NCBI GenBank assembly: GCA_963704885.1
Contig: CAVPIB010000007.1
Coordinates: 201,975-265,974 of the forward strand
DNA from: an uncultured Actinomycetes bacterium
Lineage (GTDB): Bacteria > Actinomycetota > UBA4738 > HRBIN12
DNA length: 64,000 bases
Direction of reading: 5' to 3'
Shown here: positions 1 to 24,722 of the stretch, piece after piece
Numbering within the stretch: position 1 is the first letter of the stretch
How the letters are laid out: each line of letters opens with the position of its first letter
Notes under the pieces: model-generated
The model's database searches: none
What the model was told of the DNA's origin: nothing
The model's input: the letters and a program-made list of their open reading frames with translations, nothing else
Position numbers and translations under genes: made by a program

Positions 1-486
1 TCCCCAAAGAGCGCCGATCGCCCAGCCGTCGGTTCCCATCTCACCCGTGTATTCGAGCTGCGTGCCGCTGCCGTCGTCGACCTCCGTCAGGACGAACCGC
101 TCGGTCACGGACGGAACGGGGCCGCGGACCAGCCGGAACCCGATGCGCTCGGGGCGGTCGAACGAAACCGTCTCGACCGTGACCGCCGTCAGCCCGCCGG
201 CCTTCGTGCGATGCGCGGCAAGCACCAGATCCGCGCCGGCGTCTAGGACCTCGACCTTCTCCCGTAGCGCTCGAGGCGGGTTCTTCGATAGATAGGGAAC
301 GGCGACGAGGTCGAAGACCGTCTCTCTCGGCGCTCCGATCTTCACGACCTGGGGCCCGAGCGGGCGGGTCCGTCGTCCGAGGCCCGTATCGAGCGTGAGC
401 CTGCCTGTGGCAACGAGCACGAAGGTCACTCCGGCGGCGATCACCGCCAGGACGCCCAACAGGACGAGCGCGATGACCCAGCTCAT
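1..486 (-). CDS. SRPBCC (polyketide cyclase/dehydrase-like) family protein with an N-terminal TM helix; partial, 3' end lies outside the window
   Basis: Manual translation of the minus strand from the ATG at 486 gives MSWVIALVLLGVLAVIAAGVTFVLVATGRLTLDTGLGRRTRPLGPQVVKIGAPRETVFDLV..., open to the window edge. A GAGGGG Shine-Dalgarno lies 6 nt upstream. Not in the ORF track because no stop codon falls inside the window. Confidence 0.5.
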   Translation of the reverse strand, partial: MSWVIALVLLGVLAVIAAGVTFVLVATGRLTLDTGLGRRTRPLGPQVVKIGAPRETVFDLVAVPYLSKNPPRALREKVEVLDAGADLVLAAHRTKAGGLTAVTVETVSFDRPERIGFRLVRGPVPSVTERFVLTEVDDGSGTQLEYTGEMGTDGWAIGALWG

Positions 487-785
487 CGGCCCCTCACGAT
501 GAACCAGATCCACAAGGGGACCGTGAGCAGCTGGAGCTTCTGTGCCCAACAGGTGTCACGCCACCAGGCCCGGAGCCCAGGCTCCCGCTCGGAAGTCGAG
601 CACGACGAGGAACGGCGATCGTCGCGCGCCCGCGTTGCTCGGTCAGGTTCTTCGAGAGTCATGAGTTCAGCCTAAGGGACGCCGGGAGGTCGCCCGGATC
701 TCCCACGTGATCACCATGCCCGGTTGATCGGATGATGAAGGGAATCATCGCTGCCTTCGCTGCGTCTTGTTGATGGAGGAGGCAG

Positions 786-1313
786 ATGGGTACCGAACAC
801 GACGCATTCCTGCGAGCCACGATGGGTTGTATGGACCTGGTCTACAACATCGCCAGGCGCATGGTCTTCTCGGCCGAGGATGCTGAGGACCTGGTGCAGG
901 AGACCTATCTGGCGGCCTTCCGCGCCTGGGAGGACGAGCGCCGTCCGGACAAGGTGGAGCCGTGGATGGCGACGATCTGCCTGAATCTAGGGCGGTCTCT
1001 CTATCGGCGGCGTGCTCGTCGGCCCCAGGAGGTGCCCCTGGAAGCTCGCCTGCTGGTGTTGCCCGACCAGGCCGACCCGGAGCGCGAGGCGCTGGCGTCG
1101 CTCGATCGCGACGCGCTGCACAGAGCGATGTGGCAGCTCCCCGAGGAGCAGTGCACCGCGCTCACCCTGGTGGACCTCGGAGGTCTCAGCACGGCCGAGG
1201 CCGCGTCGGTGATGGCGACGCCCCGGGGAACCGTGCTCTCGCGCCTGCACCGAGGGCGCCGGGCCCTCGCGCTGCTATTGGCTGACGAAGTACCTGACCG
1301 GGAGGTGACGTGA
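786..1313 (+). CDS. ECF (sigma-70 family, group IV) RNA polymerase sigma factor
   Basis: 175 aa. Region 2 motif DAEDLVQETYLAAFRAW and region 4 HTH LSTAEAASVMATPRGTVLSRLHRGRRAL. GGAGG Shine-Dalgarno upstream of the ATG. Confidence 0.9.
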   Translation: MGTEHDAFLRATMGCMDLVYNIARRMVFSAEDAEDLVQETYLAAFRAWEDERRPDKVEPWMATICLNLGRSLYRRRARRPQEVPLEARLLVLPDQADPEREALASLDRDALHRAMWQLPEEQCTALTLVDLGGLSTAEAASVMATPRGTVLSRLHRGRRALALLLADEVPDREVT

Positions 1314-1636
1314 TGAGCCGAGACCGATCCGACACCGAGGTCGACATCCGGCGTGCGCACGACCCTGACGTGAACGCCTCGGTCTACGTGGCAGGAGAAC
1401 TGTCCCGCCGTGTCGCTCGATGGTTCGAGCATCATCTCCTCGAGTGCGACGACTGCTGGCGAGAGGTCTGGCTCGCTCGAAGAGGCCGGTTCGTCGCCGA
1501 GCACGCCCGCGAGCTCGCGCCCGCCTCGCTGAGGGACGCGGTGCGTGGAGCGATCCAGCTCTCGTCCGTAGCCTCCGAGGGAACGGGCCGTCGACGCTGG
1601 GCCTGGTTCCGTAGGCGCCCGACGGGACGAGGATGA
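1310..1636 (+). CDS. zinc-finger anti-sigma factor (RsrA/ChrR-like), translationally coupled to the sigma factor
   Basis: 108 aa. HxxxCxxC motif (HHLLECDDC). GTGATGA overlap with the stop of the ECF sigma gene. Confidence 0.7.
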   Translation: MMSRDRSDTEVDIRRAHDPDVNASVYVAGELSRRVARWFEHHLLECDDCWREVWLARRGRFVAEHARELAPASLRDAVRGAIQLSSVASEGTGRRRWAWFRRRPTGRG

Positions 1637-2025
1637 CCCCGCCGGACGGCACCATGGGGATCGGATCGAGCGACGCGGTCGGCCACCAGATCGACGGTGG
1701 TCGCCCTCCGGTGATCGCCGGTCTCCTCGGCGGGGCGATCGGGGCGGTGTGCTGCATAGGTCCAGCCGTAGGGGTGGCCATCGGGGCGAGCTCAGGGTCC
1801 TTCCTGATAGGGCTGAGCCGGTATCGTCCGGCGACGTTCGCTCTGGGGGCGGTGTTCGCCGCAGGAGCGGTGTGGCTCCAACTCCGCAGGCGCAGGGCCT
1901 CGTGTCCGACGCCTCAGTCGTTCCGAGTGCTCAGGAGTCGCTGGATCGACGTTTCCTTACTGGCGTTCGTGCTGACCTATGCGATCGGCCGGTTCGTGGT
2001 GCCGCCGCTCATCGAGCGTCTGTGA
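1633..2025 (+). CDS. MerT-like three-TM membrane protein (mercuric/heavy-metal transport protein homolog)
   Basis: 130 aa. TM1 carries a vicinal Cys pair (GAIGAVCCIGPAVGVAIG) and is followed by SRYRP, which together closely resemble MerT TM1 (SACCLGPLVLIALG...EPYRP). ATGA overlap with the anti-sigma gene. Confidence 0.5.
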   Translation: MTPPDGTMGIGSSDAVGHQIDGGRPPVIAGLLGGAIGAVCCIGPAVGVAIGASSGSFLIGLSRYRPATFALGAVFAAGAVWLQLRRRRASCPTPQSFRVLRSRWIDVSLLAFVLTYAIGRFVVPPLIERL

Positions 2026-2246
2026 AACTCCGAGGCCGAGCGATCTCTTCGCCTTGGTTCCGCTACTTGGAGGTGACCGCGACTGCCATCGGTCGGGCAA
2101 CAGCAGGGCATAGGGCAACAGCAGGGCATAGAAGGACGAGCGCTATGGCGGCGGCTGCGACCAGCGAGCCCCGCGCAGCAGGCGATGATCGGCGCCATCG
2201 AACATGAGATCGCTGCGTCCTCGCGGGCTGCTCAGCAGCATGCAGG

Positions 2247-3377
2247 TCAGCCGGTGATTGCGACGCCGAGCAGACTACCGATGCCGTAGGTGAGCCCGGC
2301 GGCGGCGAGCCCGAGCACCGCCTGACGGAGCCCCGAACGCCATGGGCCCCGGCCGGTCACGAGGGTGATGGCCGCCCCGGTTCCGAACAGGGCGAGGCTC
2401 GCCAGGGAGAGGCTGGTGAGCACCGCGGTGGCCCCGCTCGTGAATAGGAACGGGATCACGGGGATGATGGCGCCGAGGGCGAAGAGGACGAACGAGGCAG
2501 TGGCGGCTTCCCACGGGGAACCGCCCAGCTCGTCGGGGTCGATGCCGAGCTCCTCCCGTGCCAGGGTGTCGAGCGCCGTGTCGTGGTCGGCCATGACCCG
2601 GGCCGCCAACTGGCGGGCCTGGGCCTCGGGCAGCCCCTTGGCCTGGTAGATCAGGGCGAGCTCCTCTTCCTCCTCCTCGGGGAACTCCTCGATCTCGCGA
2701 GCTTCGATGTCGATCTGGCGTTGGTACAGCTCGCGGGAGGATTGCACCGAGAGCCATTCGCCGAGGGCCATGGACGACGCCCCGGCGAGGAGGCCGGCGA
2801 ACCCGGCGATCAGCACCGCCTGGTTCGAGATGTCGGCGCCGGCCACACCCATCACCAGAGCGAGGTTCGACACGAGCCCGTCGTTGGCGCCCAGCACGGC
2901 GGCACGTAGCGCGTTGCCGCCGATCGTCCGGTGGCGTCCCTCGAGCCTTGCCAACGCACCGCCCTCGACGCCGCCGTTACCGCTCGTGAGCGTGCGCAAC
3001 AGTCGGGCGTGAGACCGTTCGTCGGCAGGCATCGAGGTGCCGTCGGTCTCGGGCTGGTCGTCGTACATGAACTGGCCCGTCTGCTCCTCCCTCGCCAACG
3101 TGGACGCCAGCACGCCCGGTCCGAGCCGGCGCGCGGACCAGGCCAGGATGCGGGCGCGTCGGGTCGGCGTCCGGGGCGGAACCGGTTGGCCTGCGGCGCG
3201 GATCTTGTCCTCCCAGAACGAGGCGTGTCGTTCTTCCGTGGCCGCGAGGCGCTCGTACAGCTCGGCCAGCTGCGGCTGGTCCTCGAGCTCGGCCAGCGCC
3301 CGGTACTGGAACGCCCCGTCGGTCTCTTCCTGGATGTTCTCGCGGTAGCGGGCGATGTCGTCGCGATCCGCCTTCAT
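2247..3377 (-). CDS. VIT1/CCC1-family Fe/Mn transporter with N-terminal ferritin-like (rubrerythrin/Er) domain
   Basis: ERHASFWEDK ferritin-like segment, then GANDGLVSNLALVMGVAGA, the VIT1 signature. Start assigned to the internal Met (MKADRDD) at 3377, which has an AGGAAC Shine-Dalgarno; the ORF track extends to 3503. Confidence 0.85.
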   Translation of the reverse strand: MKADRDDIARYRENIQEETDGAFQYRALAELEDQPQLAELYERLAATEERHASFWEDKIRAAGQPVPPRTPTRRARILAWSARRLGPGVLASTLAREEQTGQFMYDDQPETDGTSMPADERSHARLLRTLTSGNGGVEGGALARLEGRHRTIGGNALRAAVLGANDGLVSNLALVMGVAGADISNQAVLIAGFAGLLAGASSMALGEWLSVQSSRELYQRQIDIEAREIEEFPEEEEEELALIYQAKGLPEAQARQLAARVMADHDTALDTLAREELGIDPDELGGSPWEAATASFVLFALGAIIPVIPFLFTSGATAVLTSLSLASLALFGTGAAITLVTGRGPWRSGLRQAVLGLAAAGLTYGIGSLLGVAITG

Positions 3378-4015
3378 CCCGTCGGTTCCTTCCTTCTGGT
3401 CGGGCGCCGGGCGGGTTGGGCCTGCCCGAACCCTCTTTCGAGGAGTCCCAAGCCCTCTTCCACCGTCGTGCGGGGGTCCGAGGCGCCGCCGGATCCCACC
3501 CACAGGCGCATCGCAGCGCGCAGCGCCCCGAGTGCGGCCCCGGCCACGACGCGAGGTCGTGGATCGAGGTCGGCGTCCACACCGAGACGTGTGGCGACCT
3601 CGCGGGCTATGGCGTCCTCGTAGGCCGCTTGCAGTTCGAGGCTCCTCGCCAACACCGAGGGCTCCGTGGAGACGATCCGGGCGCGAACCGATCCCTCGGC
3701 GGGGTCGGCCGCGACCTCACCCACCATCGCCAACACCGCGCGGCGGACAGGTGCGGTGACCGGCTCGTCGGGTGGACCGGCTGCGAGCGCGTCGCGGATC
3801 GCCGCGAGGCGGCGCTCGTGGTCGGCTAGGGCCGCGTCCTCCTTCGTCGCGAAGTATCGGAAGAACGTGCGCGGTGAGACGTCGGCGGCCGCCGCGATCT
3901 CGTCGACCGTCGTCTCGCGGAAGCCGCGCTCGGCGAACAGACGGAGCGCGGCGGACGCGATCGCCTTGCGCGTTCGGAGCTTCTTCCGCTCCCGCAAGCC
4001 CTGCTCCGCGACCAT
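3374..4015 (-). CDS. TetR/AcrR family transcriptional regulator
   Basis: N-terminal HTH RKKLRTRKAIASAALRLFAERGFRETTVDEIAAAADVSPRTFFRYF. Divergent to the MmpL gene. Confidence 0.9.
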   Translation of the reverse strand: MVAEQGLRERKKLRTRKAIASAALRLFAERGFRETTVDEIAAAADVSPRTFFRYFATKEDAALADHERRLAAIRDALAAGPPDEPVTAPVRRAVLAMVGEVAADPAEGSVRARIVSTEPSVLARSLELQAAYEDAIAREVATRLGVDADLDPRPRVVAGAALGALRAAMRLWVGSGGASDPRTTVEEGLGLLERGFGQAQPARRPTRRKEPTG

Positions 4016-4063
4016 GTGTCAAGCCTAGCAGTGAGTGGCGTCCAGTGTCAGATGGCGGAGGTT

Positions 4064-4084
4064 GTCAAATGACAGAAGCTGTCA
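4064..4084. promoter_or_regulatory. candidate TetR operator: overlapping palindromes GTCAaaTGAC and TGACAGaagCTGTCA in the TetR-MmpL intergenic region
   Basis: Perfect 6-3-6 inverted repeat read directly from the sequence, positioned between the divergent TetR start (4015) and the MmpL start (4100/4136). Confidence 0.45.
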
Positions 4085-4099
4085 GTATGCTGATCCCAA

Positions 4100-6346
4100 G
4101 TGACCCGAGTGGCCGCGAGAAGAAGGGAGCGCCACATGTCGTTGTCAGGGGCCCTTTACCGCCTGGGGCGAGGGTCGGTGCGTCGGCGTCGGCTCGTCGT
4201 GGCCGTCTGGATAGTGTCGGCGGTGGGGATGCTGCTTACCGGGCGTGCCCTGGGCGCGAGCTCGGTGGACGACTTCCGGGTGCCCGGGACTGAATCCCAG
4301 CAGGCGCTTGACCTGTTGAGGGAGCGGTTCCCCGCGGCCTCCGGCACCGAGGCCACCGTGGTGTTCCATATAGCCACGGGCACGGCACGCGACGCCCAGA
4401 ACGTCGTGCTGATCGGCGAGACGCTCAGCCAGGTCGCGCGACTTCCGCACGTGCTTGGTGTGGAGAGCCCCGTGGCCGACTCCACCCCATCGGGTCGGGC
4501 GGGTGTGTCCGCAGACGGGACGATCGCCTTCGCGACGGTCCACTACGACTCCGACGCGTCGGCACTCGGTATCCGGGCCGTCGATGCGCTCGAGGAGGCC
4601 GTTGGCCCGGCTCGCGAAGCCGGGATGCAGACGGAGCTCGGTGGCGCGCTGCTGCAATCGGTCGACCGGGCGGAACCGAAATCCTCAGAGCTGTTCGGCT
4701 TGGTGGCCGCGGTGCTGGTGTTGCTGCTGGCGTTCGGGTCAGTGGTCGCGATGGGGCTGCCGATCGGCACCGCGATCCTCGGCCTGCTCACCGGCATGTC
4801 GGTCGTGAAGCTCGTGAGCCTGTTCGTCGACATGCCCACTGTGGCGCCGACGCTCGCGACGATGATCGGGTTGGGCGTGGGGATCGACTACGCCCTGTTC
4901 ATCGTCACACGACACCGCGAGTACCTCCATGCAGGACTCACGGTCGAGGAGGCCGCCGGTCGCGCGATCGCGACCTCGGGCCAGGCGGTCGTGGTCGCCG
5001 GTGCCACCGTTGTGATCGCGATCTTGGGCCTATGGATCTCGGGGATCCCGTTCGTCGGCCTCCTCGGAACCGCATCGGCGATCGTCGTGACCGTGGCGGT
5101 GCTCGCCGCCATCACGGCGCTGCCCGCGCTGCTCGGGTTCGCCGGGCAGGCGATCGATCGTCTCCGCGTCCCGCGGTTCGGCCGTCGGTCCTCCAACGCC
5201 GAAGCGTCGCCGGGTTGGCGGCGGTTCGGTCGCCACGTGGTCGACCAACCTTGGCGTCACCTGGCGCTCAGCCTCGCGATCCTCGGCGCGCTGGCGGTTC
5301 CCCTGTTCTCGATGCGGCTAGGCCAGGTGGACGCGGGGACGGCCTCGGCCGAGACTACCCAGCGCCGCGCCTTCGACCTCATGACGCAGGGCTTCGGACC
5401 GGGCTTCAACGGTCCACTGCTGTTGACCGTCGAGGGCGCCGACGCGGCAACCCTGGGATCGATCGGCGTTGCTGTGGCTGCCGACCCCGACGTCGTCGCG
5501 GTGAAGCCGCCGATGGCGAGCCCCGACGGAACGACCGCCGTCATCACCGTCGTCCCGGGGTCCTCGCCGCAGAGCGAGGCAACTACCGAGTTGGTGTCGC
5601 GCCTCCGCGATCAGGTGCTGCCCGGCGTCGTCGAGGGAACCGACGCGCAGGTCTTCGTCGGCGGCCAGACCGCCACCTATGTCGACCTGGCGGCGAAGGT
5701 CGGTGACGCCCTTCCGCTGTTCATCGGCGCGGTCGTGCTGCTTTCGTTCGTGTTGCTGACCGTGGTCTTCCGCTCGATCCTCGTGCCGCTCAAGGCCGCC
5801 CTGATGAACCTGCTGTCGATCGGCGCCGCATACGGCGTGGTCGTCGCTATCTTCCAGTGGGGGTGGGGCAAAGGTCTCGTCGGCCTCGAGGAGACGGTCC
5901 CGATCGTCTCGTTCGTGCCGATGATGATGTTCGCGATCCTGTTCGGCCTCTCGATGGACTACGAGGTGTTCCTGCTCTCGCGGATCCGCGAGGAGTACGT
6001 GCAACGGCGCGACAACGCGGAGAGCATCGTGACCGGGTTGGCATCGACAGCGAGGGTTATCACCTCGGCCGCCCTCATCATGATCGCCGTGTTCCTCTCC
6101 TTCCTGTTGAACGACGACCCGACCGTGAAGATGGTGGGCATCGGACTGGCGACCGCGGTGGCCGTGGATGCCACGATCGTCAGGATGATCTTGGTGCCCT
6201 CGACGATGGCGTTGCTCGGTGACGCGAACTGGTGGCTGCCCCGGTGGCTCGACCGCCTGCTACCGAGGATCGACATCGAGGGCGAGGCCGGACTTCCTCT
6301 TGGAAGCGAGGCACGGGTAACCGGAGCTACAGTCGAGGTCGTTTGA
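4100..6346 (+). CDS. MMPL-family (RND superfamily) membrane transporter
   Basis: 748 aa, about 12 TM helices with two periplasmic loops, MmpL-type N-terminus. The likelier start is the ATG at 4136 (AAGGGAG Shine-Dalgarno); a GTG at 4100 is also open. Confidence 0.9.
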   Translation: MTRVAARRRERHMSLSGALYRLGRGSVRRRRLVVAVWIVSAVGMLLTGRALGASSVDDFRVPGTESQQALDLLRERFPAASGTEATVVFHIATGTARDAQNVVLIGETLSQVARLPHVLGVESPVADSTPSGRAGVSADGTIAFATVHYDSDASALGIRAVDALEEAVGPAREAGMQTELGGALLQSVDRAEPKSSELFGLVAAVLVLLLAFGSVVAMGLPIGTAILGLLTGMSVVKLVSLFVDMPTVAPTLATMIGLGVGIDYALFIVTRHREYLHAGLTVEEAAGRAIATSGQAVVVAGATVVIAILGLWISGIPFVGLLGTASAIVVTVAVLAAITALPALLGFAGQAIDRLRVPRFGRRSSNAEASPGWRRFGRHVVDQPWRHLALSLAILGALAVPLFSMRLGQVDAGTASAETTQRRAFDLMTQGFGPGFNGPLLLTVEGADAATLGSIGVAVAADPDVVAVKPPMASPDGTTAVITVVPGSSPQSEATTELVSRLRDQVLPGVVEGTDAQVFVGGQTATYVDLAAKVGDALPLFIGAVVLLSFVLLTVVFRSILVPLKAALMNLLSIGAAYGVVVAIFQWGWGKGLVGLEETVPIVSFVPMMMFAILFGLSMDYEVFLLSRIREEYVQRRDNAESIVTGLASTARVITSAALIMIAVFLSFLLNDDPTVKMVGIGLATAVAVDATIVRMILVPSTMALLGDANWWLPRWLDRLLPRIDIEGEAGLPLGSEARVTGATVEVV

Positions 6347-11066: not shown

Positions 11067-11681
11067 ATGACGACGACACAGACGCTCGGGATCATCGCCG
11101 CCCTGTGGGTGCTGATCGGTGTGACCGCCTCGATCGTGATGGGTCGGCGCGGACACAGCTCGTTCACCTGGCTGCTCCTCGGAGCGCTGCTCGGACCGCT
11201 GGTGATCCCCCTGGGACTGAGTGCCGTCAGGGCCGAGCGACGGGACCCCGGGACGCGGTCCAGGATCCTGCGCGAGGGCACGGCGCGTACCGGGACCGTG
11301 GATCTGCTCGTTGGGATCGACGGGTCGGTGCAGTCCGCCGCCGCGCTCCGTGCCGTGCTCAGCCTTTTCGCGGATCGCATCGGCCGCCTCACGCTTGCGA
11401 GCGTCATCGACTACGACAGCGCCATCTCGTCCCGGCCCTGGGATTCCGAGCGGCTGGCCGCGGAGCAACTCGGAAGTCTCGCGGCCACCGTGGAGGGCGC
11501 CCGGCCTACCACGATGGTGCTGGTGGGGCAGCCTTCTGCCGCGCTCGCGAAGCACGCGGCGGAGGACGGCTATGAACTGATCGTGGTCGGGCGTCGAGGC
11601 CACGGAGCGAGCAAGGCCCTGATCGGCAGCACGGCGATGCGTCTCGGGCACGGGGATGGTGCCCCGGTCCTCATCGTCTGA
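11067..11681 (+). CDS. membrane-anchored universal stress protein (N-terminal TM helix + UspA domain)
   Basis: 204 aa; TM helix plus MGRRGH motif, then the USP domain LLVGIDGS...LIVVGRRGHGASKALIGSTA. Confidence 0.8.
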   Translation: MTTTQTLGIIAALWVLIGVTASIVMGRRGHSSFTWLLLGALLGPLVIPLGLSAVRAERRDPGTRSRILREGTARTGTVDLLVGIDGSVQSAAALRAVLSLFADRIGRLTLASVIDYDSAISSRPWDSERLAAEQLGSLAATVEGARPTTMVLVGQPSAALAKHAAEDGYELIVVGRRGHGASKALIGSTAMRLGHGDGAPVLIV

Positions 11682-11695
11682 TCGCAGAGAGGGGG

Positions 11696-12307
11696 ATGAC
11701 CATGAACAGCACGCAGGTCGGGATCCTCATCGTGGCCGCATGGGTGTCGGTGGGCCTGGTCATCGGGCTCGTGATGGGCCGACGTGGACACAACACGCTC
11801 ACATGGATGATCTTGGGTGTGGTGCTCGGTCCCTTGACCGTTCCCCTGACGTGGCGAGCGGTCCGCGACGAACGAACGTCGAGGTCCCACGAGCTGTCAC
11901 AGGGCTCGCCCGGACCCGGAACCGCCGACGTGCTCGTCGGGATCGACGGCTCCGCTCAGTCCGAAGCCGCGCTCCGAACCGTCGTCGCACTCCTGGGCGG
12001 CCGGCTGGGCCGTCTCACATTGGCGGGCGTCGTCGACTTCGACAGCGTGGGATCAACGCCGCCGTGGGACAACGAGGCTCAGGTCCTTGAGGTCCTGGAG
12101 CGTCTACGAGGCTCCCTGCCGGACCTGAGCCCCGGGACCACGGTTCTCGGCGGGCATCCCGCGACCGCTCTCATGAAGGAAGCCGTGGAGGGTGGTTACG
12201 AGATGCTGGCTATCGGGCGACGGGGCCACGGAGCCGCGAAGGCCCTGATGGGGAGCACCGCGAACCGGCTCGCGCACGGCGCCAACATCCCCGTGCTCAT
12301 CGTCTGA
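11696..12307 (+). CDS. membrane-anchored universal stress protein, tandem paralog of 11067-11681
   Basis: 203 aa, about 55% identical to the upstream paralog, with the same MGRRGH motif, USP domain and VLIV C-terminus. Confidence 0.8.
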   Translation: MTMNSTQVGILIVAAWVSVGLVIGLVMGRRGHNTLTWMILGVVLGPLTVPLTWRAVRDERTSRSHELSQGSPGPGTADVLVGIDGSAQSEAALRTVVALLGGRLGRLTLAGVVDFDSVGSTPPWDNEAQVLEVLERLRGSLPDLSPGTTVLGGHPATALMKEAVEGGYEMLAIGRRGHGAAKALMGSTANRLAHGANIPVLIV

Positions 12308-17326: not shown

Positions 17327-18142
17327 GTGACCGGTCGGACAGCGTCCGTGGAGAACAGCGCCATCGGAGCCCCCGCGTGGTCGAAGCGAGCGAGGAGACC
17401 GATCCGAACCAGGAGTACCGTGGCTCTGGTGTCGCCGCAACGACAGGAGCACGAGGTCTATCTGGAGGTGGCGACGAAGCGCGCCTTCGCCGGGGCGATC
17501 GGTTGGCCGGGGTGGTGTCGGAGCGGTCGTGACGCGGACGCCGCACTCGAGGCGCTGTTGGCGTATGGGTCCCGCTACGCGAATATCGTCCGTGGTCTGC
17601 GGCCTGCATTTCACTCGCCGATCGCCCTTGGGGACCTACGTGTGGTGGAGCGGCTGACCGGCGACGCCACCACCGAGTTCGGTGCGCCCTCCATCGCGCC
17701 ATCCGCCGACGCACGCCCGATGGACGCGAAAGAGTTCGACCGGTCGCTGTCGGTGCTGCGATCGTGCTGGTCGGCCTTCGACCGAGCCGTCGCGACCGCT
17801 CGAGGTGTGGAACTCACGAAGGGTCCGCGTGGCGGGGGTCGTGGGCTAGACGCGATCGTCTCGCACGTGGTCAGCGCGGAAGCTAGCTATGTAGGCAAGC
17901 TAGGTATGAAGCGCCCGAGGGTCGACGCTGACGAGACGGCACACGCTCGCGACGACGTCCGCATGGTGGTCCTTGAGGCCCTGTCGCGCGCGCTGACCGA
18001 TGGGCTTCCCGAGGCCGGGCCTCGCGGCGGGAAGATGTGGACGCCGTCGTACTTCGTTCGCCGAGCCTCGTGGCACGTGACCGATCACCTGTGGGAGATA
18101 CAGGACCGGTCCGGGACCGAAGCGTCAGCCGGTTCCTGCTGA
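17327..18142 (+). CDS. DinB/MDMPI-like (mycothiol maleylpyruvate isomerase N-terminal domain-like) hypothetical protein
   Basis: C-terminal WHVTDHLWEI motif and His-rich metal-binding pattern. The real start is probably an internal GTG near 17420. Confidence 0.4.
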   Translation: MTGRTASVENSAIGAPAWSKRARRPIRTRSTVALVSPQRQEHEVYLEVATKRAFAGAIGWPGWCRSGRDADAALEALLAYGSRYANIVRGLRPAFHSPIALGDLRVVERLTGDATTEFGAPSIAPSADARPMDAKEFDRSLSVLRSCWSAFDRAVATARGVELTKGPRGGGRGLDAIVSHVVSAEASYVGKLGMKRPRVDADETAHARDDVRMVVLEALSRALTDGLPEAGPRGGKMWTPSYFVRRASWHVTDHLWEIQDRSGTEASAGSC

Positions 18143-23537: not shown

Positions 23538-24722
23538 TCAGGAGCCCTTGACCTCCTCCCACAACCCGATGACGTCGTCGTACGTGGCGCGGTCTCCGTC
23601 GGGCTCGTGCGGGAATCCTTGGTTGAACGTCAGAGTGTTCGACAGGTAGTTGTCGATGTCATCGTACGGATAGAGAGCAGCGGCTTCCGGAGTCAAGAGC
23701 GGGATCGCCGCGGAAACCCCCGGCCCTTGCAGGAGGCTGCTGTTCGCGTCAGCGTTCACCTCCGGATCCAACAGGTGATTGACGAAGGCGTAGGCGTTCT
23801 GAGGATTGGGTGCCGTCGGAGTGATGAACGCCGAGTCCGCCCAACCGATGGCTCCTTCCGACGGGATCACCGTCTTCGTGGGGATGCCCTCATCGGCGGT
23901 GACCGAATCCATGAAGGCCAACCCGACCACCATGTAGTCCACATCGCCGGCGATCAGCAGGGAGATGGAGTCGCCGATGGTCGGTGCGAGCGCCTTGATC
24001 TGCCCGACTAGGCTCGTCAGGTAGTCCTTGACTTCGCCGTTCAGCTGATCCGTGGTCAGCTCGTCCGGATCGATGCCCACCGCGATGGCCCCGAGCGCGA
24101 CGTTGTTCAGGGCGCTGTCGATGGTGGAGACGCGTCCCTTGTACGCGGGGTCGAGGAGGTCGTGCCAGCTCTTCGGCTCGGGCACCCGATCGGTCCGATA
24201 CGTCACGCCCGAGAAACCCCAGGTCCATGGGGACGCGTTATAGGTGCCATCGTCGTTCTTGAACGGCGCGACCTGGAAGGCGGGCATCAGTCCGGCCAGA
24301 CCCGGAACCTGATCGAGGGTCATCGGGCTGATCAGGCCCAGATCCACGTAGTCCAGGAGCACCACGTTGTCGCCATACGAGATGTCCCACTGATCACCGC
24401 CTGGACCCTTGAGGACCGTGGCCACCTCCTCGGGACCCGCGATGTACTTGACGTTCACCTCGATGTCGTTCTGCTTGAGCCACGGGGTCAGGTCGCCCGC
24501 CGTGTCGTATCCCTCCCACGTGTAGAGGTTGAGCGGTCCTCCCACCGGTGGGAGCGGGCTCGGCGACGGACTTCCCGCCGTGCCGGAGGTGGGGCTCGAC
24601 TCCGAGTCGCCGGACAAGCCGCAGGAGGCGAGGAAGGCGGCGGCGGCCGCCGTTCCGGTGACCCTCAGGAACCGCCTGCGGTCCATCAAGAATCTCAGCT
24701 CACGGTCTTGTGCCTCGCCCAT
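23538..24722 (-). CDS. potD: extracellular solute-binding protein (PotD/PotF-like polyamine-binding), Tat/lipoprotein signal
   Basis: RRRFLRVTGTAAAAAFLASCG signal (Tat-type, with a lipobox). GGAGGGGGAGAG Shine-Dalgarno before the start at 24722. Confidence 0.85.
   Translation of the reverse strand: MGEAQDRELRFLMDRRRFLRVTGTAAAAAFLASCGLSGDSESSPTSGTAGSPSPSPLPPVGGPLNLYTWEGYDTAGDLTPWLKQNDIEVNVKYIAGPEEVATVLKGPGGDQWDISYGDNVVLLDYVDLGLISPMTLDQVPGLAGLMPAFQVAPFKNDDGTYNASPWTWGFSGVTYRTDRVPEPKSWHDLLDPAYKGRVSTIDSALNNVALGAIAVGIDPDELTTDQLNGEVKDYLTSLVGQIKALAPTIGDSISLLIAGDVDYMVVGLAFMDSVTADEGIPTKTVIPSEGAIGWADSAFITPTAPNPQNAYAFVNHLLDPEVNADANSSLLQGPGVSAAIPLLTPEAAALYPYDDIDNYLSNTLTFNQGFPHEPDGDRATYDDVIGLWEEVKGS

What the first reader, a model, noticed from the sequence alone, without database searches (positions are those of the whole stretch)
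786..2025. Operon coupling an ECF sigma factor, a zinc-finger anti-sigma factor and a MerT-like membrane protein
The three ORFs overlap by 4 nt each (GTGATGA and ATGA). The third protein has the MerT hallmark, a vicinal Cys pair in TM1 (AVCCIGP) followed by the conserved YRP motif. No merR, merP or merA gene is nearby. A thiol/metal-reactive membrane protein co-transcribed with a redox-sensitive HxxxCxxC anti-sigma factor suggests a metal or thiol-stress sensing or transport module controlled by the sigma factor. This is not the canonical mer operon context.
Basis: partly seen in the sequence, partly recalled or inferred. Interest (0 to 1): 0.55.

Follow-up and report, generated by a model that had tools for sequence, protein, structure and literature searches.

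The report
Sigma/anti-sigma operon with MerT-like protein
A stress-response switch (an alternative sigma factor and its zinc-binding inhibitor) is co-transcribed with a small cysteine-lined membrane protein distantly related to the mercury importer MerT; the trio recurs in uncultured Actinomycetota and seems to belong to a larger, uncharacterised thiol or soft-metal stress regulon.

Summary
Three translationally coupled genes lie at 786-2025. They encode an ECF sigma factor, a 107/108-aa soluble zinc-finger anti-sigma factor (ZAS), and a 130-aa, predicted three-helix membrane protein.

The third protein falls below the Pfam and NCBIfam MerT thresholds. Reciprocal profile searches (hhalign 99.2%) still place it in the MerT superfamily. 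It keeps the TM1 Cys-Cys pair and the YRP motif, but has one loop Cys instead of two. No mer genes were detected: a motif scan found no HMA domain in the window, and only the genes at 1-6346 were profiled.

The sigma-ZAS-MerT-like order recurs in five distinct loci with unrelated flanks, with MerT-like identity down to 49%. It is not universal. Orthologous sigma/ZAS pairs exist without the MerT-like gene, and the MerT-like gene also occurs alone.

A conserved promoter, GGGAATC-N15-GCGTC (window 740-768), precedes the sigma gene in all nine close orthologous loci. In relatives it also precedes two other gene sets:
- TlpA-like/CcdA/DUF3179 genes
- a radical-SAM + methyltransferase + second MerT-like paralogue operon

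My best reading is an autoregulated ECF module whose output handles thiol-reactive stress or soft metals at the membrane. It is not a mer operon. The ZAS has a His2Cys2 zinc site, so RsrA-type redox sensing is unproven. VIT1 belongs to a separate operon. I rate this a new variant of a known kind, of moderate interest.

The parts
740..768 (+). Predicted autoregulatory ECF promoter GGGAATC-N15-GCGTCTT (-35 GGAAT at 741-745; -10 CGTC at 763-766)
   Evidence: This is the only GGAAT-N18-GTC site in the 64-kb window and the only PWM hit scoring >= 12. The same motif lies 20-80 nt upstream of the sigma start in all nine close orthologous loci, while the spacer sequence varies. One match in the window is not significant on its own, since 2.4 are expected by chance.
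775..782 (+). Shine-Dalgarno sequence GGAGGAGG of the sigma gene
   Evidence: Read directly from the sequence. It lies 3 nt before ATG786.
786..1313 (+). ECF (group 4) sigma factor, 175 aa, SigH/SigE-like
   Evidence: Pfam Sigma70_r2 E = 1e-14 and r4_2 E = 5.5e-13. TIGR02937 sigma70-ECF is above its cut-off, while the SigH_actino model is far below its own (97 vs 251). The best solved relative is M. tuberculosis SigH, E = 1.5e-22.
1313..1636 (+). Soluble zinc-finger anti-sigma factor (ZAS), 107 aa from ATG1313 (108 aa from GTG1310); Arg-rich C-terminal tail; no TM segment
   Evidence: Pfam zf-HC2 27 bits, above the 22.2 cut-off. In the 28-sequence family alignment H17, H42, C46 and C49 are invariant, and the tail is RRRRxWFRRR. 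The L018 orthologue continues into a TM segment and an extracytoplasmic domain.
1633..2025 (+). MerT-superfamily membrane protein ('MerT-like A'), 130 aa, three predicted TM helices; C40-C41 in TM1, Y64-R65-P66, single loop Cys C91
   Evidence: Pfam MerT E = 2.1e-5 and 25 bits, below the gathering score of 32.9. Subfamily alignment A1 shows the invariant Cys residues. The profile search found 164 hits, of which 78/86 tested match Pfam MerT. hhalign gives 99.2%. The AF2 model is all-helical with pLDDT 76.

Best explanation
The locus is an autoregulated ECF sigma / zinc-anti-sigma operon whose third, translationally coupled gene is an output (effector) gene.

**Proposed mechanism.**
1. In the resting state the soluble ZAS holds the sigma factor through a Zn(His2Cys2) anti-sigma domain.
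2. A thiol-reactive signal attacks the C46-x2-C49 site and releases sigma. The signal would be a soft metal or metalloid ion, an electrophile, or an oxidant. This step is inferred.
3. Sigma-RNAP then fires from GGAAT-N18-GTC promoters, including its own at 741-766. This promoter assignment is predicted from conservation.
4. That produces more sigma/ZAS together with the 130-aa MerT-like protein.

**Role of the third protein.** It is a distant MerT-superfamily member with three predicted TM helices. By analogy with MerT, it would pass a thiophilic cation, or another thiol-bound species, from the Cys-Cys pair in TM1 to the single cytoplasmic-loop Cys. This is inferred from homology only.

**Wider regulon in related genomes.** The same promoter motif also precedes two other gene sets:
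- a TlpA-like thioredoxin, CcdA and DUF3179 (which carries a CxxC motif)
- a radical-SAM (TrsS/Tes-like) + DVU_1556/ArsM-like methyltransferase + second MerT-like paralogue operon

So the module most likely governs an envelope thiol or soft-metal(loid) stress response. It is not classical mercury resistance.
For: **Domain identities.**

**Coupling and starts.**

**MerT-superfamily homology.**

**Conserved cysteines.** C40, C41 and C91 are invariant in the 19-sequence subfamily. C91 is invariant and C40/C41 nearly so across 86 superfamily hits.

**Synteny.** Sigma-ZAS-MerT-like A is found in:
- the window and its sister contig
- L008/L009/L010
- L030
- L028
- L018, at 49-56% identity

The flanks differ in each locus.

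**Paralogue.** A second MerT-like paralogue sits next to the same sigma/ZAS in L008, L025, L026/27, L028 and L030.

**Promoter motif.**
- It lies upstream of every close sigma orthologue.
- It lies 16-73 nt upstream of the Redoxin/CcdA, DUF3179, rSAM and 93-aa genes.
- It also precedes an rSAM-MT-MerT-like B operon that has no adjacent sigma gene (L031).

**Purifying selection.** All three genes show it.

**DUF3179.** It has selenocysteine (UxxC) forms, which implies a redox or metal-active site (PMC13188914).
Against: - No experiment supports any step, and all relatives are uncultured MAGs or metagenome contigs.
- The MerT-like protein is below the curated MerT thresholds and has only one loop Cys, so its substrate is unknown.
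- Its gene contexts elsewhere give no metal clue. They are an AlaX-like gene, AlkZ-like/zf-CGNR genes, and large Zn-ribbon regulators.
- The ZAS lacks the RsrA C11 equivalent and most RsrA redox determinants. ZAS factors with a ChrR-type site are reported to be insensitive to thiol oxidants (PMC3177212).
- Within the window the promoter motif occurs only once, so no regulon beyond the operon itself can be shown in this genome.
- The window has no rSAM, methyltransferase, DUF3179, Redoxin or CcdA homologue.
- Pattern counts alone are near chance expectation. The support comes from position and conservation.
Confidence: 0.55

Rival explanations
1. The MerT-like protein is part of the sensor rather than an output. 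It would act as a membrane co-receptor that captures a thiophilic metal and hands it to the CxxC of the soluble ZAS, as MerT hands Hg to the N-terminal domain of MerA. Alternatively it would tether the TM-less ZAS to the membrane through the ZAS's Arg-rich tail, as the small membrane protein YhdK does with YhdL in the B. subtilis sigM operon.
For: - The gene overlaps the ZAS stop as ATGA, which favours equimolar production.
- The short ZAS ends exactly at the basic juxtamembrane-like tail. In the L018 orthologue that tail is followed by a TM segment and an extracytoplasmic domain. The short form therefore looks as if it has lost its own membrane and sensor part.
- A MerT-like protein (A or B) lies within the cluster in 8 of 11 distinct sigma/ZAS loci.
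Against: - Orthologous short-ZAS pairs in L023, L024 and L029 have no MerT-like gene within the DNA seen.
- MerT-like A occurs without sigma/ZAS in most loci.
- L018 has both a full-length membrane ZAS and MerT-like A, so the protein is not simply a replacement for a lost TM domain.
- No interaction data exist, and too few paired sequences are available for a coevolution test.
Confidence: 0.15
2. The MerT-like protein is a transmembrane thiol-disulfide relay, analogous to CcdA/DsbD, rather than a metal transporter. It would use the TM1 Cys pair and the cytoplasmic Cys to move reducing equivalents to exported CxxC proteins such as DUF3179.
For: - MerT-like A sits divergently next to DUF3179 in L001-L003 and L022. 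A sigma-type promoter in the shared gap faces DUF3179.
- In relatives the predicted regulon contains CcdA and a TlpA-like thioredoxin.
- The protein has conserved Cys residues on both sides of the membrane.
Against: - To my knowledge no MerT-family protein is known to act as a redox relay.
- CcdA-type proteins are already present in several of these clusters, which would make a second relay redundant.
- Homology points to metal transport: 27 of the 86 superfamily hits carry HMA metal-binding domains.
Confidence: 0.15
3. The third gene is an ordinary mercury-resistance merT whose partner genes lie elsewhere in the genome.
For: - The MerT models are the best hits in both Pfam and NCBIfam.
- The CC pair and the YRP motif are present.
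Against: - Scores are far below the curated cut-offs (25 vs 32.9; 26.8 vs 150).
- The loop has a single Cys.
- No HMA motif occurs anywhere in the 64 kb.
- None of about 25 related loci shows merA, merP or merR next to it.
- The subfamily is confined to a few clusters of uncultured Actinomycetota: five 50%-identity clusters at E < 1e-30.
Confidence: 0.05
4. The adjacency is fortuitous. Either the third ORF is not functionally tied to the sigma/ZAS pair, or it is a spurious ORF in high-GC DNA.
For: - The gene's context varies across the family.
- The SD sequence in front of ATG1633 is poor.
Against: - The same gene order with overlapping stop/start recurs in five distinct loci with unrelated flanks, down to 49% identity.
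- The family is conserved with invariant residues.
- Substitutions show a third-codon-position bias.
Confidence: 0.05

Closest known systems
MerT (Tn501/Tn21 mercuric ion transporter, Pfam PF02411)
   Same: - About 120-130 aa with three TM helices.
- A vicinal Cys-Cys pair in TM1 followed by G-P.
- A YRP motif before TM2.
- A basic cytoplasmic loop bearing Cys.
- Profile-profile probability 99.2%.
   Different: - Below the Pfam and NCBIfam thresholds.
- Only one loop Cys (C91) instead of the C76/C82 pair.
- No merR, merP or merA partner.
- Transcribed from an ECF promoter with a sigma/anti-sigma pair rather than under MerR.
- The subfamily is restricted to uncultured Actinomycetota.
SigR-RsrA (S. 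coelicolor) / SigH-RshA (M. tuberculosis), ECF12 thiol-oxidative stress switch
   Same: - An actinobacterial ECF sigma with an adjacent soluble ZAS of about 105 aa.
- The closest solved sigma is SigH.
- The ZAS core FEHHxxECxxC resembles the RsrA region K33FEHHFEECSPC44.
- The promoter GGAAT-N18-GTC resembles the SigR/SigH GGAAT-N18-GTT consensus (consensus recalled from my own knowledge).
- The operon is autoregulated.
   Different: - The SigH and RsrA equivalog models are far below their cut-offs (97 vs 251; 24 vs 62.5).
- The RsrA C11 equivalent is His.
- Only E40, and loosely L45, of the four redox determinants are kept.
- The predicted targets are envelope thiol proteins and MerT-like proteins, not cytoplasmic trxBA or mycothiol genes.
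- A third, membrane-protein gene is coupled to the pair.
ChrR-sigmaE (Rhodobacter sphaeroides) ZAS
   Same: The zinc ligand set is His, His, Cys, Cys: H6/H31/C35/C38 in ChrR and H17/H42/C46/C49 here.
   Different: ChrR has a C-terminal cupin domain and senses singlet oxygen. The ZAS here is a bare anti-sigma domain with an Arg-rich tail. No sequence match to solved ZAS structures was found at E <= 1.
B. subtilis sigM-yhdL-yhdK operon (ECF sigma, anti-sigma, small multi-TM protein); recalled from my own knowledge
   Same: A three-gene ECF operon in which a small polytopic membrane protein follows the anti-sigma gene.
   Different: YhdL is itself membrane-anchored. YhdK is not a MerT relative and has no Cys pair. 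No homology was tested here.
Metal-responsive ECF systems (CnrYXH of Cupriavidus, CorE of Myxococcus); recalled from my own knowledge
   Same: An ECF sigma factor coupled to metal handling.
   Different: Their sensing uses a periplasmic CnrX sensor, or direct Cu binding by the sigma factor. They have no ZAS and no MerT-like protein.

Membership tests
ECF (group 4) sigma-70 factors | Sigma regions 2 and 4 only; match to the ECF superfamily model above its cut-off | tested here: met
   Pfam Sigma70_r2 54 bits and r4_2 49 bits, with no r3. TIGR02937 scores 73.1 bits against a cut-off of 42.9.
SigH/SigR (ECF12) orthologues | Score above the TIGR02947 SigH_actino cut-off | tested here: not met
   97.4 bits against a cut-off of 251.55. 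The sigma is related but not an orthologue.
SigH/SigR (ECF12) orthologues | Target promoter GGAAT-N18-GTT | tested here: inconclusive
   The conserved upstream motif is GGAAT-N18-GTC, with an extended -10 of GCGTC. It is similar to the consensus but not identical, and no transcription data exist.
Zinc-binding anti-sigma factors (ZAS, zf-HC2) | H-x3-C-x2-C motif in an anti-sigma domain encoded next to an ECF sigma gene | tested here: met
   PF13490 scores 27 bits against a cut-off of 22.2. H42, C46 and C49 are invariant in 28 homologues. The gene overlaps the sigma stop codon.
Zinc-binding anti-sigma factors (ZAS, zf-HC2) | Binds Zn(II) and the cognate sigma factor | not testable with these tools
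   Needs purified protein.
Redox-sensing RsrA/RshA subgroup of ZAS | Cys at the RsrA C11 position, which forms the trigger disulfide with C44 | tested here: not met
   The equivalent residue, 25 residues before H42, is an invariant His (H17). The protein has only two Cys. The role of C11 is taken from PMC3177212.
Redox-sensing RsrA/RshA subgroup of ZAS | Redox-determinant residues E39, E40, L45 and E46 flanking the two Cys | tested here: not met
   The window has L44, E45, W50 and R51 at those positions. Only E40 is matched, and L45 is replaced by another hydrophobic residue. TIGR03988 scores 23.9 against a cut-off of 62.5.
MerT mercuric ion transporters (PF02411 / NF010314) | Score above the curated family threshold | tested here: not met
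   Pfam 25.0 bits against 32.9. NCBIfam 26.8 bits against 150.
MerT mercuric ion transporters (PF02411 / NF010314) | Homology to the family over TM1-TM2-loop | tested here: met
   hhalign of the subfamily against proteins scoring 46-111 bits on PF02411 gives 99.2% probability, E = 3e-19, over 87 columns. 78 of 86 profile hits match PF02411.
MerT mercuric ion transporters (PF02411 / NF010314) | Vicinal Cys pair in TM1 | tested here: met
   C40-C41 lie in AVCCIGP and are invariant in the subfamily.
MerT mercuric ion transporters (PF02411 / NF010314) | Second Cys pair in the cytoplasmic loop between TM2 and TM3 | tested here: not met
   The loop RRRRASCPTPQSF has a single Cys, C91.
MerT mercuric ion transporters (PF02411 / NF010314) | Encoded in a mer operon with merR, merP and merA | tested here: not met
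   The neighbours are SRPBCC, sigma, ZAS, VIT1, TetR and MMPL. No HMA motif occurs in the 64 kb. No mer genes are seen in the related loci.
MerT mercuric ion transporters (PF02411 / NF010314) | Transports Hg(II) | not testable with these tools
   Needs uptake or hypersensitivity assays.

The most novel reading that the evidence does not exclude
The window's operon would be the visible tip of an undescribed ECF-controlled regulon of uncultured Actinomycetota. A His2Cys2 ZAS would sense a soft metal or metalloid. It would then switch on four components:
- two families of MerT-like membrane proteins
- an exported CcdA/TlpA/DUF3179 thiol system
- a TrsS/Tes-like radical-SAM enzyme
- a DVU_1556/ArsM-like methyltransferase

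Together these would form a dedicated organometal(loid) uptake and transformation pathway. The MerT-like protein might also feed the inducer directly to the anti-sigma factor.
Probability: 0.15. Interest if true: 0.75.

Novelty: new variant of a known kind. Interest (0 to 1): 0.5.

Why it matters
ECF sigma / ZAS pairs and MerT proteins are each well known. I found no description of them coupled together (literature searches). If the predicted regulon is real, three things follow:
- It would assign a first regulatory context, and a testable stress signal, to several protein families of unknown function. These are DUF3179, the TrsS-like radical-SAM enzyme, the DVU_1556-like methyltransferase, and two MerT-like subfamilies.
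- It would show MerT-fold proteins working outside mercury resistance.
- It would offer a compact sigma/anti-sigma/promoter set with a defined motif, usable as an orthogonal switch.

The limits are real. All members come from uncultured organisms, and the inducer and substrate are inferred only.

Tried and rejected
- **Metagenome scans.** Two scans for more loci gave little. The alignment query found none. The single-protein query found four loci, none with new sigma contexts.
- **Solved structures.** A PDB sequence search with the MerT-like profile gave only a spurious viral glycoprotein hit. The ZAS gave only antibody noise. No solved relative is available to anchor either protein.
- **Structure prediction.** The AF2 model has pLDDT 76 and pTM 0.45. 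It is all-helical but does not resolve the TM1/TM2 hairpin, so I did not use it for fold search.
- **Consensus scans.** Sigma-70 promoter and intrinsic terminator scans of 400-2400 found nothing.
- **RNA families.** An Rfam scan of the whole window found nothing.
- **Sigma-type promoter near VIT1 or elsewhere in the window.** There is none. The two-mismatch hit at 23611 has the wrong spacing.
- **Regulon partners in the window.** tblastn for rSAM, MTase, DUF3179, Redoxin and CcdA homologues found none.
- **Literature.** Neither the ECF reclassification paper nor a MerT + anti-sigma search mentions this arrangement. The Haft & Tolstoy 2025 paper that defines TrsS could not be read.
- **Gene-fission idea.** I considered that MerT-like A might be the detached TM part of an ancestral membrane ZAS. 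I rejected it because L018 has both a full-length membrane ZAS and MerT-like A.
Full report
**1. Observation**

Window 786-2025 carries three same-strand ORFs.
- ORF 1 is 786-1313 (175 aa).
- ORF 2 is 1310/1313-1636 (108/107 aa).
- ORF 3 is 1633-2025 (130 aa).

The sigma stop TGA (1311-1313) overlaps GTG1310 by 4 nt, or ATG1313 by 1 nt. I take ATG1313 as the likelier start. GGAGG at 1301-1305 lies 7 nt upstream of it, and all homologues begin MSRDR/MRRRR. The ZAS stop and the next gene's start overlap as ATGA (1633-1636). The sigma gene has a strong SD sequence (GGAGGAGG, 775-782).

The ORFs look like real genes. GC3 is 0.75-0.82. Against the L030 orthologues, substitutions fall mostly on third codon positions: 14/6/62, 12/5/33 and 23/18/43.

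**2. What the three proteins are**

*Gene 1* is an ECF sigma factor. It matches Pfam r2 + r4_2, and TIGR02937 is above its cut-off. Its nearest solved relative is M. tuberculosis SigH (E = 1.5e-22), followed by SigE. It is not a SigH orthologue, since TIGR02947 scores 97 bits against a cut-off of 251.

*Gene 2* is a zf-HC2 anti-sigma factor (27 bits against a cut-off of 22.2). It has no TM segment.
- In a 28-member family alignment the invariant candidate zinc ligands are H17, H42, C46 and C49.
- That is a His2Cys2 set, as in ChrR. RsrA and RshA use Cys-His-Cys-Cys.
- The protein has only these two Cys.
- Its core FEHHLLECDDC resembles RsrA K33FEHHFEECSPC44.
- The RsrA trigger Cys (C11) is replaced by His, and only one or two of the four published redox determinants (E39, E40, L45, E46) are retained (PMC3177212).
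- That paper also records that ChrR, RsiW and RsuA are insensitive to thiol oxidants.
- 'Redox-sensitive' therefore remains possible but is not implied by the motif.
- The family ends in a conserved Arg-rich tail (RRRRxWFRRR). In the more distant orthologue L018 the same tail is followed by a TM helix and an extracytoplasmic domain of about 120 aa.

*Gene 3* scores on the MerT models of both libraries, but below their curated cut-offs: Pfam 25 bits against 32.9, NCBIfam 26.8 against 150.
- A word-indexed search found only 19 close relatives, none with an informative name.
- C40, C41 and C91 are invariant among them.
- An exhaustive profile search of 1.84 billion representatives found 164 hits at E <= 1e-3, but only five at E <= 1e-30.
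- Of the 86 hits tested, 78 match Pfam MerT and 27 carry HMA domains.
- C91 is invariant and C40/C41 nearly invariant across those 86.
- hhalign of the subfamily against proteins that score 46-111 bits on PF02411 gives 99.2% probability over TM1-TM2-loop.
- AF2 gives an all-helical model of moderate confidence.

The protein is therefore a real but distant MerT-superfamily member. It keeps the TM1 Cys pair and the YRP motif, but has one cytoplasmic-loop Cys rather than two.

**3. Context in the window**

- Upstream, on the minus strand at 1-486, is a membrane-anchored SRPBCC gene.
- Downstream and convergent lies a ferritin-like/VIT1 gene. Its true start (ATG at 3377) overlaps the stop of a TetR/MftR-like gene as ATGA. 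VIT1 therefore belongs to a separate operon, which is divergent from an MMPL gene.
- No HMA/GMTCxxC motif occurs in any frame of the 64 kb.

**4. Is the arrangement conserved?**

Yes, but only within a lineage, and not universally. The order sigma-ZAS-MerT-like A, with overlapping or closely spaced genes, occurs in:
- the window and an identical-protein contig from ERR12037370
- L008/L009/L010, at 74% MerT-like identity
- L030
- L028, where the downstream gene is cut by the contig end
- L018, at 49-56% identity, where the ZAS is membrane-anchored

The flanking genes differ in every case.

Starting instead from the ZAS, I found further orthologous sigma/ZAS pairs with 76-85% sigma identity. They lack MerT-like A and sit among a recurrent set of genes:
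- a radical-SAM enzyme with an N-terminal zinc ribbon; its best NCBIfam matches, both below cut-off, are TrsS (345 bits against 490) and the tetraether synthase Tes
- a methyltransferase; its best matches are the DVU_1556 family (128 bits against 155) and arsenite methyltransferase
- a second MerT-like paralogue, 'B' (GxGCCxYP, 38-43% identical to A; Pfam MerT E = 0.03)
- a TlpA/ResA-like thioredoxin
- CcdA (DsbD_TM)
- DUF3179, which carries a YCPLC motif

Of 11 distinct sigma/ZAS loci, five have MerT-like A directly downstream, and eight have a MerT-like gene (A or B) in the cluster.

Conversely, MerT-like A occurs without sigma in most GTDB and metagenome loci:
- after an AlaX-like gene in L004-7 and L011-12
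- divergent from DUF3179 in L001-3 and L022
- in other contexts elsewhere

**5. Promoter and predicted regulon**

Window 740-768 reads GGGAATC-N15-GCGTCTT, that is GGAAT-N18-GTC. One such match in 64 kb is not significant alone, since 2.4 are expected by chance.

What makes it convincing is conservation.
- The same motif, with a varying spacer sequence, lies upstream of the sigma start in all nine close orthologous loci. In L026 it sits inside the end of the preceding rSAM gene.
- Identical motifs lie 16-73 nt upstream of the divergent Redoxin/CcdA operons (L023, L025, L026, L029), upstream of the rSAM operon (L024, L026), and upstream of a 93-aa gene (L028, L029).
- A GGAATC-N16-GCGTT variant faces DUF3179 in L001-3 and L022.
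- An N17 variant precedes an rSAM-MT-MerT-like B operon that has no adjacent sigma gene (L031).
- A PWM built from 17 sites finds only the autoregulatory site in the window, and nothing near VIT1.

In this genome fragment the only demonstrable output of the sigma factor is therefore its own operon, and hence the MerT-like gene.

**6. Mechanism**

*Shown by sequence and comparison:*
- an ECF sigma/ZAS pair
- translational coupling to a MerT-superfamily membrane protein
- a conserved ECF-type promoter
- recurrent association with Cys-rich envelope proteins

*Inferred:*
- The ZAS sequesters sigma through a Zn(His2Cys2) domain.
- A thiol-reactive agent (soft metal or metalloid, electrophile, or oxidant) disrupts the CxxC/Zn site.
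- Sigma then drives its own promoter and the regulon.
- The MerT-like protein relays a thiophilic species from C40/C41 in TM1 to C91 on the cytoplasmic loop.

I put 0.55 on this composite. The 'autoregulated ECF operon with a MerT-superfamily effector' part is much firmer than the identity of the signal or the substrate.

*Rivals:*
- The MerT-like protein is a co-sensor or membrane tether for the TM-less ZAS (0.15).
- It is a CcdA-like redox relay (0.15).
- It is a genuine merT (0.05).
- The adjacency is fortuitous (0.05).

**7. Comparison with known systems and novelty**

The regulatory half works like SigR-RsrA/SigH-RshA but fails the membership tests for that orthologous group. Its zinc site is ChrR-like.

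The third gene is MerT-like by fold and motif. It fails four tests for family membership:
- the curated thresholds
- the loop Cys pair
- mer operon context
- MerR control

A three-gene ECF operon ending in a small polytopic membrane protein has a loose precedent in B. subtilis sigM-yhdL-yhdK (my own knowledge, not tested here).

Neither a MerT + anti-sigma + ECF literature search nor the main text of the ECF reclassification paper mentions a MerT or DUF3179 context. That library is incomplete, however.

I rate the finding a new variant of a known kind and score interest at 0.5. The added value is the conserved promoter and the predicted regulon, which links several families of unknown function. 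Everything rests on uncultured genomes and inference.

Noticed in passing
window 2095-2131: A perfect 18-bp tandem repeat (GGGCAACAGCAGGGCATA x 2.1) lies in the 220-nt gap between the convergent MerT-like and VIT1 genes. No terminator-like hairpin was detected there.
   Followed up: no
window 2247-4015 (-) and 4100-6346 (+): A TetR/MftR-like gene (3374-4015) and a ferritin-like + VIT1 fusion gene overlap by ATGA and form their own operon. The fusion has an MbfA-like architecture, and its real start is ATG 3377. The operon is divergent from an MMPL transporter gene. This suggests TetR-controlled iron/manganese export, unrelated to the sigma operon.
   Followed up: partly
window 1-486 (-): An SRPBCC/Polyketide_cyc2 protein with an N-terminal TM helix is encoded divergently from the sigma gene. 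In the sister contig it is followed by a glutaredoxin-Pyr_redox_2 fusion and a HAD hydrolase. That puts a thiol-redox gene just beyond the window edge.
   Followed up: no
L008 263-3013; L024 1103-3383; L026 1918-5543; L028 299-3043; L031 5843-8381: A conserved operon combines a zinc-ribbon radical-SAM enzyme (TrsS/Tes-like), a DVU_1556/ArsM-like methyltransferase (N-terminal ACC...HPGG motif) and a second MerT-like paralogue. Its family has 95 clusters, all either unnamed or labelled hypothetical or uncharacterised, mostly from Actinomycetota MAGs. The operon carries the sigma-type promoter even when it is not next to the sigma gene. This may be organometal(loid) chemistry.
   Followed up: partly
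L023 1362-3291; L025 3325-6003; L029 2853-5669; L001 3790-4959: DUF3179 (YCPLC motif; selenocysteine forms are reported in PMC13188914) repeatedly sits next to a TlpA-like thioredoxin and CcdA, and is preceded by the same ECF promoter motif. This gives a first regulatory and functional lead for DUF3179.
   Followed up: partly
window 11067-11681 and 11696-12307 (+): Two tandem paralogous membrane-protein genes of about 204 aa have near-identical N-termini. They were not examined further.
   Followed up: no
window 17429-18112: A 75%-identical homologue of the 231-aa gene that lies 0.4 kb downstream of the operon in L008 is found 15 kb away in the window. This shows local rearrangement around the sigma operon.
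   Followed up: no
L028 3071-3352 (-); L029 2118-2399 (+): A 93-aa gene with no family assignment lies next to the sigma/ZAS pair and has its own copy of the promoter motif 16-20 nt upstream.
   Followed up: no
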